A stretch of DNA of 60,512 nt, filler included, from Hausera hauseri (Eukaryota), in the NCBI GenBank assembly GCA_046269625.1. It is 12 parts of 12 records of this genome, joined end to end, with 100 filler letters (N's around TTAATTAATTAA, not from the genome) between each part and the next. Parts side by side here need not be neighbours in the genome. Positions count along the whole stretch, not along the records: positions 20,374 to 24,808 come from JBJURY010582667.1; positions 24,909 to 30,271 come from JBJURY010270841.1; 10 more parts are not named here. The stretch is one strand, 5' to 3'. Every line of letters starts with the position of its first letter. Position 1 is the stretch's first letter. This document shows, piece after piece, positions 24,411 through 30,271 of this stretch. The notes beneath the pieces were generated by a model. The model had not been told where the DNA came from. It did no database searches and saw only the letters and a program-made list of their open reading frames with translations. The position numbers were made by a program, and so were the translations under genes.

Positions 24411-24949
24411 TTGAACGTACTGATGTTCATAAATGAATGGCCAGAATAGTAAATGTCCTATTGAGAGAGTTGACATTTAAACATCGGTCGAGCAGATATA
24501 TCGACACGAACTAAACAATGTCTACTTATATTTTTGAACCTCGCACACACAATTTGTTGCACTATAAGTATATGTAGATACCTAACTATCAACTGGTGAA
24601 AACGTTTTTGACAAAATAATTTGTTTAATCAATTTCTATTGGATGTTTGTTATTTGGTAAAGCCTTGTGCAAGCTGATGATTTTGCAGTCAATATAAAAT
24701 AACAATAGAGGCTACATATTAAGTTATAAACTTTATATACATGTCTTTTTGAGGACAATAATGTTGCAGAATTTGTTTAACGTTCTTTATGTAACGTTCT
24801 AATATTTCNNNNNNNNNNNNNNNNNNNNNNNNNNNNNNNNNNNNNNNNNNNNTTAATTAATTAANNNNNNNNNNNNNNNNNNNNNNNNNNNNNNNNNNNN
24901 NNNNNNNNCTAATGTTGCTATTAGCAACAAATTAGGATTTCCATTTCTT

Positions 24950-26060
24950 ATCTTTGAATTCATTGGTGCAGGTTTGCATCTATTTGCATGGACTTTTATT
25001 GGGTCCGTTTTATTTTTTTATTTTTATTCAGATAGATATTTGTTTCATCTACTTTTTGGAACATATATGGACCTTTATAGGGTCTGCCCAATTTTGGTGT
25101 TCTACCTTTCTTACTCAAAGGTGTATGCAACATAACCTTATCTCCAGGTTTAAAACCATGAGATTTCGCCTTTTCATTATATCTATTTTTATACTCCTTT
25201 TAACATATTTTTGTGTTTCGTGAGGCTAGGTTCCACACATATCCAAGTTTTTCCTCTAATAGCTCTTTATAGTCCATACCTTTCAGATGAGACGTAGGCA
25301 TTTTGAAATCTATATCAATCGGTATATGGGTATCCCTAAGGTACATTAAGTAGAATTCAGTTTCTTTCGTCGCAGGATGTATTGTATTCCTTATAAGTAA
25401 GGTTTAATATACTCATCCCAATCGTCCTGTCGTTCATTAACCATTGTTGCTAACATGTTGGTCAAAGTTTCATTAAACCTTTCTACCGTTCCATTAGTCT
25501 GTGGATGGTATGGAGTAGTTTTTAACTGTAATATTTGAAATACTTTTGAAATCTCTGCCATTACTTCTCCCGTGAAGTTTTAGGCTTGATCCGTTAATAA
25601 TTTAGCCGGTTTTCTGTAATTAAACACAATTTCTTCGACAAATGCTTGAGCAATAGTTTGACCTTTTTGATCGTGTATTGGAACCACGACTGGACATTAG
25701 AAAAATATGTCCACAAACACTAACATACTTGTTTCCATTTATTGTCATAGGCAACGGTCCTAGAATGTCCATTGCTGAAAATTCCATGGGAGCAGGTGGG
25801 TATTCTAGTGGTTTCAGAGGGACCTTAATTCTTATTCCTGTATTTTTCGTCGTAGTACAAATAGTACAGCTTTTACACCATTCCTCAATATCTTTAGACA
25901 TGTTATACCAATAGTATTTTCTTTTTAGTCTACCTAAGTTTCGTTTTTTTATTAATGTCCTCCCAACATACCATCATGGTATTGAGTTAGCAATAGTTTT
26001 ACATTTTCTTGGGGAACAACTACAACTAATCTTCCTTTATGGTTATAGTATAATATATCA
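24950..26060 (-). pseudogene. pol: Integrase (HHCC, DDE, GPY/F)
   Basis: YHDGMLGGH..KYYW..CKSCTIC; MDILGPLP; LLTDQA; TTPYHPQTNGTVERFNETL; RPYKGPY. Confidence 0.92.
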
Positions 26061-26269
26061 TCTTTTTTCTGATACTTTTCAGCAAACTTTATCAAATGAA
26101 TATAGAGTTCAATGTCTTTTGGTATGATCTTCTTCCGGAGATATTCTTTAATTTGTTTTATTTGTTCATCATTCTGCTGTTTCTGTTGTAACGATTTTTC
26201 TTGTTCTGTTATACTCCAAATAGCTTCTATAACACATGGTTTTTCCATTATTTTGTCTTCTTCTTGATC

Positions 26270-26720
26270 CACATCTTCGGGTATTCTTGACATATAATCA
26301 GCATTTGCATTAGCCTTTCCCGTTTTATACTCGAACTTTAAATCATAGGGCTGAAGTAACATTGCCTATTTCATTAGGCGACTATTTGGGTTTTTATGGC
26401 TTTTCAGCCATTGTAACAGATCATGGTCAGTATAAACAATAATCGGTTTTGTTTCTGATAAATACTGACCATATTGCTCTAACGCATACACAATGGCGAG
26501 CAGTTCCCTTTCAATTGTAAAGTAGTTTCTCTCATGTTTTCTCAACTTCCTTCCACCAAACGATATAGGGTGTTCTTGTCCTTGATCATCTTTTTGGGAT
26601 AACACAACTCCAATTCCCACTTTACTTGCATCTGTTGCTAAAAAGTATGGTTTGGACATATTAGGATAAGCCAATATTGGTGGAGCTAACAAATTATCTT
26701 TTAAATGTTGATATGCCTTT
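26270..26720 (-). pseudogene. pol: RNase H
   Basis: PPILAYP..LATDASKVGIGVVLSQ..ERELLAIVYAL..VYTDH..NANADYMSR. Confidence 0.92.
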
Positions 26721-27600: not shown

Positions 27601-27967
27601 GCAAAAGTGTCCTTATATTGTTGTAGTACTTTTACTATACCTTCCTTCTCCACATCAGTCAATATGCTATTCTCACCAAACAAATCGTAATCGTTCCAAT
27701 TAATAGGAGTTTTAACGAGTTTTGTAATTTTCTTATTCTTATTTAGGTGGCCTTTCAATTTACTTATCGGTTCATCCTCCAGTCGCATTCCGCTTTCAAT
27801 TCGTGGTTTATATCGTTGTCTTTCCATAAAATCAGATAATTCCTGAACAGTGGAAATAATATCTTCTGTGGCATTATTACCTATATCTTTTACGATATAT
27901 ACATAGGCAATTCTAGTCCCTTTTCTTAGCAATTTTGGTTTGTTTGAAACATTAGCCAATCGAACAA

Positions 27968-28681
27968 TTACTTGATGTTCTCGAATATTATCAATTGTAT
28001 GGGCTCGCATAGCTCATTCTTATCTATGAAGGTTGTGTTTGGTTTAATATAAACGTCCCCTTCATCCCTACCTTCTACTAGTGTCTTTAATACCACTTCT
28101 GTTCTAGCTGGTATTATGACATCCTCCTTGGTAGATACGGTATCCTTTTTCTCAGTCTTTATTTTTCGATATGGTTCGATTTGTTGGGTCTCCAAATTTA
28201 TACACATATCTTTTAGTTTTGCTAATGCATCGCAACCCAGTATAGCTTCAGCTACCAATTCATTTGCTATTCTGAATTCCTGCTCAAATTTTTGGTTGAG
28301 AACTTTTGTCTCGCATTTAATCAAATCTTTTACTTGTACTCTAGTTCCAAATGCTCCAACATTCGTAATGTCTTCCATTAACTTTTGTAATTTTTTCTTT
28401 AGTTGTTCCGGTAATTGTTTGCGTGAAATCATTGAAGCCGATGCTCCAGTATCAATTATTGCAGTAATGGGATAACCATCTATCCAAATTATTGTTCTAG
28501 GAATTACTTTACCTCCTTCTATGCTAGCTATTAAAGCATCTTTTGGGGCTAAAAGATAAAACATTAGTTTTACGTGTTTTGGATCATAATTATCTCCATC
28601 TCTTGAACAGGGTATGTCTATGTATTCATTACGGGATATAAACTGTGACTGTTCCTTGGGGTATTCGTTCCATTTTCTCAT
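27968..28681 (-). CDS. pol: Retropepsin protease plus the start of a dUTPase-like spacer (lineage B)
   Basis: AIIDTGASASMI...EAILGCDAL, then VIIPARTEVV. Same frame as the glycoprotein ORF, separated only by TAA at 28682-28684. Confidence 0.9.
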   Translation of the reverse strand: MRKWNEYPKEQSQFISRNEYIDIPCSRDGDNYDPKHVKLMFYLLAPKDALIASIEGGKVIPRTIIWIDGYPITAIIDTGASASMISRKQLPEQLKKKLQKLMEDITNVGAFGTRVQVKDLIKCETKVLNQKFEQEFRIANELVAEAILGCDALAKLKDMCINLETQQIEPYRKIKTEKKDTVSTKEDVIIPARTEVVLKTLVEGRDEGDVYIKPNTTFIDKNELCEPIQLIIFENIK

Positions 28682-30271
28682 TTAAGGGATATCTGAAAGT
28701 AAGGTTTTTCGTTTCTTACTTCTAGCAGTAATTAAGCTCCATGATTTTTTTGTATCTTCTACTGGTTTAGATTTTTTCTTCTCTACTGAAGGTTTATTCT
28801 CATCATTGTTATTATTATCTTCATCCCTATTTTTATTTTTCTGTTTCCATTCAACAACCTTTTTTATTATGAAGCAACTAGCTATGGATGGGATTAATGC
28901 ATAGATAATTTTCCAAGTGCAACCAGCGGCTTGTTTAATGCCATGCCCTTTAGTTATCATAGTCAAAATTGCTTTGATAAAAGCGAAAATGTAATAAAAT
29001 CCTAACCATCCAGAATTGAATTGACCAAACCACATGTACCATCCCCATGCAGTCGCAAATATATCTTGAGCAATACGTTTAGCATAATCCGGCCCCATCA
29101 AGTTTTCCCAATTAGCTTTTCCAGTATGGTCAGCTAACACTTTCATTGCCATTTCCGTTAAAACTTTCTGTCTTTGCTGAGGGAACATCATTATTCTTCT
29201 ATGATTTTCCATATCTTGTTCGGAATACACACCCATTTTTACTAAGTCTGTTAATGGTTTGTACGTTTGTTCCGTTTTCAGATTGATCAAACTAATTCTT
29301 CGCGGTGGCGTAATCTGTTCCTTTTTTGGCATCCTCATCCATAAGTTATCGCTTAATCGAAAGGCTGGTGACATAGTATATGTACAATTTTGGTGTACGT
29401 ATGGTTTTTCTGCAGGGTCTAATAATATCCGTGTGATGGGTTGTAAGAAGCGTGGTTTTTCCTTATACCAAACAGGCAACTCCATTGTACAATCAGTGAT
29501 TGGTCTTAATTTAACAGCAACTTTTGTGCACTCGAAGGTTACGAGCGTTTCACCCATCGTTCGTGCGAACTTTCCTTCTGCATCGGGTGATTCAGCTGGA
29601 TCTTTCATTATTCCATCCGTTATGGCTGATAAATATATTCGGTTTTTAATTATTTCTCTATTCAGTTTACAATCATTTAATATTATTTCTCGGTACATAG
29701 CGTAGATATTTTCTTGCTGGAAGTGATAAATGAAATCAATTTTGTTATCAAAATAAAGGTGGGGTTTCACTTCTGATTTATCAATCTTCCGCTTAGCTTT
29801 TGTTATTTCAGTTGTGGATAAAAATATTCCTTTGTATTTTGTTCGAAACACTGTGTGATCGCATCTTCGAGTATCACTTTCCAATTTAAATCTCATTCCA
29901 TCTTGCGGATTCGCTGAATATACTATGGTAGGAGTCTCAATCATATCCGATGTTTGGTCTAATCTGCTTTTGGATATCTCCTTTTTATACATTCGCCCTT
30001 TTGTTTCGTTAAATTTTCCCACCTTTAATAAGGCTAACTGACATTTATTTTTGTCAACTTCATATGACATAATCGATTCGCCAGTTTCGCATTCCTTATT
30101 ATAATAATCATATTCAGGGAATGCCATCATTTTTCCAGAAGATAATTCAAAAAGAGCATCATATTCCCTTAACTCCACTTGGTAATCTTCAATAGTCACT
30201 ATGTTATTTAAAATTTCACCATTGATATTGTAAGACTCGCCGTTACAATATCCTGTCTTGTCAATCGTCCC
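28682..30271 (-). CDS. env: Chuvirus-type class III fusion glycoprotein (lineage B); N-terminus cut by the contig end
   Basis: GTIDKTGYCNGESY; NDCKLNREI; GETLVTFECTKVAV..CTMELPVWY..FLQPITRIL; GVYSEQDM..IMMFP; AWGWYMWFGQFNSGWLGFYYIFAFIKAIL (membrane-proximal region and TM). Confidence 0.88.
   Translation of the reverse strand, partial: GTIDKTGYCNGESYNINGEILNNIVTIEDYQVELREYDALFELSSGKMMAFPEYDYYNKECETGESIMSYEVDKNKCQLALLKVGKFNETKGRMYKKEISKSRLDQTSDMIETPTIVYSANPQDGMRFKLESDTRRCDHTVFRTKYKGIFLSTTEITKAKRKIDKSEVKPHLYFDNKIDFIYHFQQENIYAMYREIILNDCKLNREIIKNRIYLSAITDGIMKDPAESPDAEGKFARTMGETLVTFECTKVAVKLRPITDCTMELPVWYKEKPRFLQPITRILLDPAEKPYVHQNCTYTMSPAFRLSDNLWMRMPKKEQITPPRRISLINLKTEQTYKPLTDLVKMGVYSEQDMENHRRIMMFPQQRQKVLTEMAMKVLADHTGKANWENLMGPDYAKRIAQDIFATAWGWYMWFGQFNSGWLGFYYIFAFIKAILTMITKGHGIKQAAGCTWKIIYALIPSIASCFIIKKVVEWKQKNKNRDEDNNNNDENKPSVEKKKSKPVEDTKKSWSLITARSKKRKTLLSDIP

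What the first reader, a model, noticed from the sequence alone, without database searches (positions are those of the whole stretch)
24909..30271. Ty3/gypsy retroelements with a chuvirus-type fusion glycoprotein placed upstream of protease, inside the polyprotein
Seen: this contig reads glycoprotein-TM-PR-RT-RH-IN, with glycoprotein and PR in the same frame. The same glycoprotein-before-PR order occurs in a clearly divergent lineage at 14831-20273 and 39480-44940. In the latter, the upstream region, glycoprotein, linker and PR active site share one frame. At 55116-55538 the upstream region reads into the glycoprotein signal sequence with no stop. Known: env in retroviruses and errantiviruses normally lies 3' of pol as a separate spliced ORF, and gB/chuvirus-like env capture is known in Bel/Pao elements. 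Inferred: a membrane-threaded polyprotein (cytosolic N-region, internal signal, luminal class III fusogen, TM, cytosolic PR-RT-IN). This would anchor Pol to the fusogen tail until proteolysis, a strategy closer to flavi/alphavirus polyproteins. Two lineages sharing it suggests an old, selected layout and possibly an undescribed group of infectious LTR elements.
Basis: partly seen in the sequence, partly recalled or inferred. Interest (0 to 1): 0.92.

Follow-up and report, generated by a model that had tools for sequence, protein, structure and literature searches.

The report
Burro-type retroelement with built-in fusion protein
These are broken copies of a retrovirus-like jumping gene, likely from a flatworm, whose family carries a herpes/chuvirus-type protein predicted to fuse membranes inside one long protein ahead of its enzymes; the layout is real but is already described for the Burro elements of planarians.

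Summary
Contig 24909-30271 reads chuvirus-type glycoprotein (Pfam PF24664, E 2e-64), membrane helix, protease, RT, RNase H, integrase. The glycoprotein model matches chuvirus G and herpes gB. All four window copies are broken. The stop between glycoprotein and protease is not a family trait: 99% of summed depth of related contigs differs in that codon, and 11 of the 14 closest long relatives carry glycoprotein then protease in one ORF. A signal-like stretch precedes the glycoprotein in 15 of 15 sequences, which fits a membrane-threaded polyprotein; processing and infectivity are untested. The layout is in print: env in frame between gag and pol in planarian Burro/GYPSM1 (PMC6431247), and GAG-ENV-POL gB-type elements in flatworms, nematodes and bryozoans (PMC13524379). 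This scan also noted it on other DNA (e1-8072092). Verdict: new, probably compact and decayed, members of a known kind. Open lead: a second signal-to-membrane-helix cassette after the integrase.

The parts
28685..30271 (-). Copy A: chuvirus/gB-type fusion glycoprotein, N-terminal ~140 residues beyond the contig end, with cytosolic tail
   Evidence: PF24664 E 1.9e-64; model pLDDT 82; chuvirus G best E 1.8e-20; herpes gB
28952..29014 (-). Copy A: predicted membrane-spanning helix
   Evidence: hydrophobicity scans; long helix in model
28865..28927 (-). Copy A: second hydrophobic helix, likely lying on the membrane surface
   Evidence: scores worse than the first helix in 17 of 17 anchored sequences; inference
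28682..28684 (-). Copy A: stop codon between glycoprotein tail and protease linker, not shared by most related copies
28211..28501 (-). Copy A: aspartyl protease
   Evidence: RVP E 2.2e-11
27880..28210 (-). Copy A: spacer between protease and RT at the place of Burro's dUTPase-like domain, split by a frame change
   Evidence: aligns with P0004 and P0151; no dUTPase hit
26369..27700 (-). Copy A: reverse transcriptase and RNase H, broken by frame changes
   Evidence: RVT_1 E 4e-21, RT_RNaseH_2 E 7e-35; best solved match Ty3 RT E 4e-38
24934..25973 (-). Copy A: integrase, broken; contig ends in its tail
   Evidence: Integrase_H2C2 E 1e-9, rve_3
14833..20271 (-). Copy B: upstream region, glycoprotein (about 15920-17780), linker, protease (15022-15315); several stops and frame changes
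39635..44856 (+). Copy C: upstream region, signal stretch (41982-42026), glycoprotein (42039-43790), linker, protease; one frame 41160-44657 with five stops
54120..55595 (-). Copy D: upstream region, signal stretch and about 30 residues of glycoprotein joined by an internal deletion to the pre-integrase region and integrase
52524..53944 (-). Copy D: post-integrase cassette with a signal-like start and a membrane helix, in frames shifted from integrase
   Evidence: no family hit

Best explanation
These contigs are broken copies of a Ty3/gypsy retroelement family, likely from a planarian flatworm, whose intact relatives encode Gag, a chuvirus/gB-type glycoprotein, protease, RT, RNase H and integrase in one reading frame that is predicted to be threaded through the ER membrane. 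Shown: domain order, one ORF in intact relatives, class III-type fold match, decay of the window copies. Inferred: Gag and the spacer are made in the cytosol; the hydrophobic stretch before the glycoprotein acts as an internal signal and is cut by host signal peptidase, leaving Gag tethered; the glycoprotein enters the lumen; one helix stops transfer; protease-RT-integrase hang on the cytosolic tail until the element's own protease frees them. Gag, glycoprotein and enzymes would thus meet on one membrane and bud as an enveloped particle able to enter neighbouring cells. This is the Burro/GYPSM1 layout, here probably in a shorter form.
For: Order in window. Of the 14 hits of 748 aa or more among the top 22, 11 have glycoprotein then protease in one ORF, 5 go on to RT, 4 to integrase, 4 have a Gag marker before the glycoprotein, 0 have pol domains before it; the other 3 end in or at the end of the glycoprotein. 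P0022 holds Gag to integrase in 2146 aa; P0151 is 4844 aa. P0004 aligns to copy A in one frame across the stop. 8718.6 of 8801.7 summed depth (56 contigs) differs from copy A within the stop codon, with no indels or joints. Stops in B and C fall at different places, and D is open through the signal. Signal-like stretch in 15 of 15. B against C glycoprotein: pN 0.15, pS 0.81, codon-position identity 81/86/43%. Fold. Literature: PMC6431247 section 7, PMC13524379.
Against: No window copy is intact, none shows Gag or LTRs, and no contig spans the whole element. Run X1 may be the source sample, so one search is not independent. Foldseek matches to solved gB are weak (best E 1.1e-3, TM-score under 0.3). 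The Bcl-2-like domain of Burro could not be shown in copies B, C or D, nor the dUTPase-like domain. The host is inferred from a by-eye match only. A one-to-one ratio of Gag, glycoprotein and enzymes is wasteful, so extra control (splicing, early stops) may exist.
Confidence: 0.8

Rival explanations
1. The ORF is single, but most Gag or most enzyme is made from spliced or internally started messages, so the threaded full-length protein is a minor product.
For: One-to-one stoichiometry is unusual for enveloped retroviruses (recalled knowledge). No RNA was available to exclude it.
Against: The frame is kept open across both junctions in very divergent relatives, and signal and membrane helix sit where threading needs them.
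Confidence: 0.12
2. The glycoprotein works inside the cell or at cell contacts (anchoring assembly, fusing vesicles or cells) and no free infectious particle is made.
For: PMC13524379 states that entry by gB-type elements is untested. Window glycoprotein A has few glycosylation sites and no furin-type motif in the part present.
Against: Invariant cysteines and the full class III architecture are kept, with strong purifying selection. This rival concerns the last step only and is compatible with the threaded layout.
Confidence: 0.25
3. The stop followed at once by ATG at 28682-28684 is a stop-restart signal that makes glycoprotein and Pol separate proteins.
For: The sequence shows the stop directly followed by a methionine codon.
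Against: 99% of depth of related contigs differs in that codon; 11 of 14 long relatives are open here; copy A has many other breaks.
Confidence: 0.03
4. The glycoprotein is an unrelated chuvirus fragment inserted into a dead retroelement, or an assembly join.
For: Chuvirus glycoprotein fossils often lie near gypsy fragments in arthropods (PMC10084718). The contigs are short.
Against: Same order in three window contigs of two lineages and in many intact ORFs; related contigs cover the junction without joints; polyprotein and window glycoproteins fall on one side of a branch against free-standing ones (SH-aLRT 99, partly circular).
Confidence: 0.02

Closest known systems
Burro / GYPSM1 giant Ty3/gypsy elements of Schmidtea mediterranea and Dugesia (PMC6431247, section 7 read; Grohme 2018 and Jurka 2007 known only through it)
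   Same: Env related to mononegavirus fusion glycoproteins, in frame between Gag and protease in one polyprotein; ubiquitin-like and Bcl-2-like stretches upstream in relatives; decaying copies with stops and frameshifts are also described there.
   Different: Burro ORF1 is about 4,900-5,100 aa in a 30-kb element; the closest relative of copy A (P0001, 80% identical) reaches the glycoprotein by residue 810, which points to a compact form. Bcl-2-like and dUTPase-like domains were not shown in the window copies. No sequence comparison with Burro itself was possible.
GAG-ENV-POL HSV/gB-type errantiviruses of Platyhelminthes, Nematoda and Bryozoa (PMC13524379), in particular Smed_errantivirus_1-6, cysteine type C1a
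   Same: Order, Ty3/gypsy pol, gB-type env. By eye the first 92 residues of window glycoprotein A match Smed_errantivirus_1 at 36 positions without gaps, in the range that the paper's table gives among the Schmidtea elements (31-38%, one pair 64%, in the 12 pairs shown).
   Different: That paper lists intact elements and speaks of ORFs; the words polyprotein, fused and frameshift do not occur in its main text. The window copies are broken and would fail its intactness filter.
BEL/Pao elements with chuvirus glycoprotein (Anakin; PMC7642597, search listing only; also cited in PMC13524379)
   Same: Same glycoprotein family captured by an LTR element.
   Different: Different retroelement superfamily; env lies after pol there (recalled), before protease here.
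Flavivirus and alphavirus structural polyproteins (recalled)
   Same: Predicted threading with internal signal and host signal peptidase.
   Different: Analogy only: unrelated proteins, class II fusogens, RNA replication.

Membership tests
Ty3/gypsy (Metaviridae) | pol order PR-RT-RH-IN | tested here: met
Ty3/gypsy (Metaviridae) | RT groups with Ty3/gypsy | tested here: met
   Best solved match Ty3 RT E 4e-38, next caulimovirus-type 2e-25; gypsy-type RT_RNaseH_2 and Integrase_H2C2. No RT tree with named references was built.
Ty3/gypsy (Metaviridae) | LTRs, primer site, target duplication | not testable with these tools
   contigs end inside the element; no genome held
Ty3/gypsy (Metaviridae) | Gag upstream | tested here: inconclusive
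   absent from window contigs; CCHC knuckle in P0001, 80% identical to copy A in the glycoprotein
GAG-ENV-POL gB-type errantiviruses (PMC13524379) | env before pol | tested here: met
GAG-ENV-POL gB-type errantiviruses (PMC13524379) | env with HSV gB / chuvirus fold | tested here: met
   37 of 40 profile hits are gB; all 38 listed Foldseek rows are gB, weak E; chuvirus G E 1.8e-20
GAG-ENV-POL gB-type errantiviruses (PMC13524379) | ectodomain between signal and membrane helix | tested here: met
   (crude scale); signal not present on contig A itself
GAG-ENV-POL gB-type errantiviruses (PMC13524379) | intact ORFs in near-identical copies (the paper's inclusion filter) | tested here: not met
   all four window copies are broken; the family is high-copy in run X1, intact members not seen there
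Burro / GYPSM1 | env in frame between gag and pol in one ORF | tested here: met
   at family level:
Burro / GYPSM1 | BCL2-like domain before env | tested here: inconclusive
   relatives: P0003 Pfam E 0.001 and Bcl-xL E 0.01, P0001 E 0.055, P0002 E 0.2; window B/C/D: no profile hit, hhalign probability 0.6%, model pLDDT 45
Burro / GYPSM1 | ubiquitin/SUMO-like domain upstream | tested here: inconclusive
   P0001 E 0.031; similar motif by eye in B and C; no Pfam hit on the broken pieces
Burro / GYPSM1 | dUTPase-like domain between PR and RT | tested here: inconclusive
   spacer of fitting size and place, aligns with relatives; no Pfam dUTPase hit
Burro / GYPSM1 | giant size (about 5,000-aa ORF, 30 kb) | not testable with these tools
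   5-kb contigs; P0001 suggests a shorter form
Burro / GYPSM1 | planarian host | tested here: inconclusive
   by-eye match to Schmidtea env; host genes not tested
BEL/Pao with chuvirus env (Anakin) | BEL/Pao-type pol, env after integrase | tested here: not met
   gypsy-type families only; env precedes protease

The most novel reading that the evidence does not exclude
These elements are enveloped flatworm retroviruses that build the whole particle from one ER-threaded polyprotein with two membrane proteins: the class III fusogen between Gag and protease, and a second signal-ectodomain-membrane-helix protein after integrase that would serve as attachment or immune-modulating partner. Such a cassette stands in frame after integrase in P0004, P0006 and P0151 (signal only in P0017) and out of frame in window copy D; I did not find it in the passages read.
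Probability: 0.2. Interest if true: 0.65.

Novelty: new member of a known kind. Interest (0 to 1): 0.27.

Why it matters
The layout is known but little studied: two papers in the searched library describe it and neither, in the parts read, tests how the polyprotein is processed. If the threaded model holds, a retroelement couples capsid, fusogen and enzymes at a fixed ratio on one membrane, unlike retroviruses with a separately spliced env, and it would offer a route for transposons to move between cells in stem-cell-rich animals. This window adds two divergent, decayed lineages and family-level support for the single frame, not a new principle.

Tried and rejected
No whole genome held. No relatives in viral contigs or JGI metagenome contigs; an alignment query was not usable. 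No RNA holder listed, which says nothing on expression. Single-sequence search of the glycoprotein against solved structures: 0 hits. A second homologue search with P0001 380-1130 returned only itself. Bcl-2-like domain in window copies: 4-sequence profile found nothing in the six-frame window, hhalign not significant and the shuffle control crashed, atlas hits all under 0.82, model too poor to search. dUTPase-like: best profile hit E 0.09, none in Pfam. Post-integrase ORF of copy D: no Pfam hit, no homologue among 1347 candidates, no phmmer match to the cassettes of relatives. dS between B and C is saturated, so no dN/dS value for the glycoprotein. The careful tree did not finish; the quick tree is cited. 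The wide structural search was never run. Sacco 2022 and Grohme 2018 could not be read; Troyka (PMC12440569, abstract only) was not pursued. Stop-restart and insertion readings were rejected as given under rivals.
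Full report
1. Observation. The window is a string of 12 short contigs joined by N spacers; no genome is held. 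In contig 24909-30271 (copy A, minus strand) Pfam finds Monjiviricetes_fusion PF24664 on 28685-30271 (E 1.9e-64), followed by retroviral protease, RT, RNase H and integrase. Glycoprotein and protease share a frame, with one stop at 28682-28684 between them. The contig begins inside the glycoprotein and ends in the integrase tail, and pol has at least six frame changes. Copies B (14831-20273) and C (39480-45361) show a long upstream region, glycoprotein, linker and protease. In C one frame runs from 41160 to beyond the protease active site with five stops. Copy D (49612-55707) is open from the upstream region through the signal stretch, but after about 30 glycoprotein residues it continues into the region before integrase, so it is internally deleted. 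A and C are 30% identical in the glycoprotein, B and C 72%.

2. Is it one ORF? Three lines say yes for the family. First, contigs of run X1 laid on 28625-28745 (270 records at 80% likeness): 8718.6 of 8801.7 summed depth, in 56 contigs, differs from copy A within the stop codon, and no indel or joint is listed. The whole contig is covered in 30 of 30 bins by 21,729 records, a high-copy family. X1 holds 40% of the sampled words and may be the source sample, so it shows sister copies, not an independent organism. Second, the stops of B and C fall at different places, and where one is closed the other or D is open. Third, a search of 1.84 billion representatives gave 801 hits, 150 listed. I scanned the 14 hits of 748 aa or more among the top 22, three free-standing 650-aa hits and two cluster members. 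Of the 14, 11 have glycoprotein then protease in one ORF, 5 reach RT, 4 reach integrase, 4 have a Gag marker upstream, and none has pol before the glycoprotein; P0001, P0003 and P0011 end in or at the end of the glycoprotein. P0022 has Gag to integrase in 2146 aa, P0151 is 4844 aa, and P0004 aligns to copy A in one frame across the stop. P0001, 80% identical to copy A, has Gag with a CCHC knuckle in frame with the glycoprotein. The three free-standing hits carry the glycoprotein alone.

3. The glycoprotein. A 114-sequence profile hits herpes gB in 37 of 40 rows (best E 0.0024). The AlphaFold model has mean pLDDT 82, a 48-residue central helix and a disordered tail. Against solved structures all 38 listed rows are herpes gB, though weak (best E 1.1e-3, TM-scores under 0.3); against predicted viral structures the best are chuvirus-like glycoproteins (E 1.8e-20). 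Between B and C the glycoprotein shows pN 0.15 and pS 0.81, with codon-position identity 81/86/43%: it was under purifying selection while the lineages diverged. In a quick tree 13 polyprotein and 3 window glycoproteins lie on one side of a branch against 20 free-standing ones (SH-aLRT 99); the rows were chosen by score, so this is partly circular.

4. How it likely works. A hydrophobic stretch and short polar spacer precede the conserved glycoprotein start in 15 of 15 sequences examined (C, D and 13 relatives). I read this as internal signal, lumenal ectodomain, one membrane pass and a surface helix, which leaves protease, RT and integrase in the cytosol. Cleavage by signal peptidase, release of the enzymes by the element's protease, budding and cell entry are inferred, not shown. 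I put the family assignment at about 0.9, threading at about 0.75 and true cell-to-cell infection at about 0.5.

5. What is known. [quoted passage not shown] PMC13524379 (abstract, sections 14 and 22, first parts of sections 5, 6 and 9, passages, and rows of supplements 1 and 2; figures not seen) reports GAG-ENV-POL gB-type Ty3/gypsy elements in Nematoda, Bryozoa and Platyhelminthes, with nine flatworm elements, six in Schmidtea. By eye window glycoprotein A matches Smed_errantivirus_1 at 36 of its first 92 residues without gaps. It cites Sacco 2022 for nematodes, of which I saw only the title. PMC10084718 (passages) and PMC7642597 (listing) cover chuvirus glycoprotein fossils and BEL/Pao capture. 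Grohme 2018 was not available; it, Jurka 2007, Sacco 2022 and unread supplements may already describe the membrane segments or the post-integrase cassette. Searches run.

6. Burro marks in the window. Relatives carry weak Bcl-2 hits just before the signal (P0003 E 0.001 and Bcl-xL E 0.01; P0001 E 0.055; P0002 E 0.2) and P0001 a weak ubiquitin hit. In window copies B, C and D the matching place is helical but could not be assigned: no profile hit, hhalign probability 0.6%, model pLDDT 45. The PR-RT spacer aligns with relatives but gave no dUTPase hit. So I file these as Burro-like GAG-ENV-POL elements, not as Burro proper.

7. Verdict. Real, correctly read, and already described as a layout. 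The copies here are decayed members of two lineages. The RT is closest to Ty3 among solved structures. What remains open is the processing mechanism and a second membrane-protein cassette after integrase seen in several relatives and in copy D, for which I found no family. Interest 0.27; new member of a known kind.

Noticed in passing
window 52524-53944 (-); P0004 2257-2561, P0006 2486-2738, P0151 4361-4730, P0017 from 2780: A second signal-like stretch, ectodomain and membrane helix follow integrase, in frame in the relatives and in shifted frames in copy D; the cassettes barely resemble each other and a fibronectin-type-III-like motif is a by-eye impression only.
   Followed up: partly
window 50002-52370 (-): Three further ORFs after copy D, the last with a RING finger (Pfam E 5.5e-7); Burro is described with RING-type and accessory ORFs.
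   Followed up: no
P0002, P0005, P0006, P0007, P0008, P0015, P0151: Several relatives carry two to seven protease-like domains in one polyprotein.
   Followed up: no
P0004: A full glycoprotein-pol polyprotein is labelled as a hypothetical protein of a Flavobacteriaceae MAG; likely animal DNA in a bacterial bin.
   Followed up: no
window 55810-60511 (+): Long stop-broken frame with several signal-like stretches and an internal duplication, no Pfam hit; may be the accessory region of a related giant element.
   Followed up: partly
window 1102-3363 (-): 754-aa ORF joining a Roc-like GTPase piece to a CCT/TCP-1 chaperonin piece; looks like a chimeric, decayed gene copy.
   Followed up: no
window 37339-38180 (-) and 47010-47465 (+): Adenain-like protease (E 0.013) beside a capsid-like fragment, and a DNA polymerase B-like fragment by eye: Polinton/Maverick remains.
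   Followed up: no
window 8564-10260 (+): Gag- and protease-like fragments of another gypsy element without glycoprotein (DUF7041 E 0.003).
   Followed up: no
window 11446-14730 and 32277-35258: Long short-period tandem arrays that make spurious ORFs on both strands.
   Followed up: no
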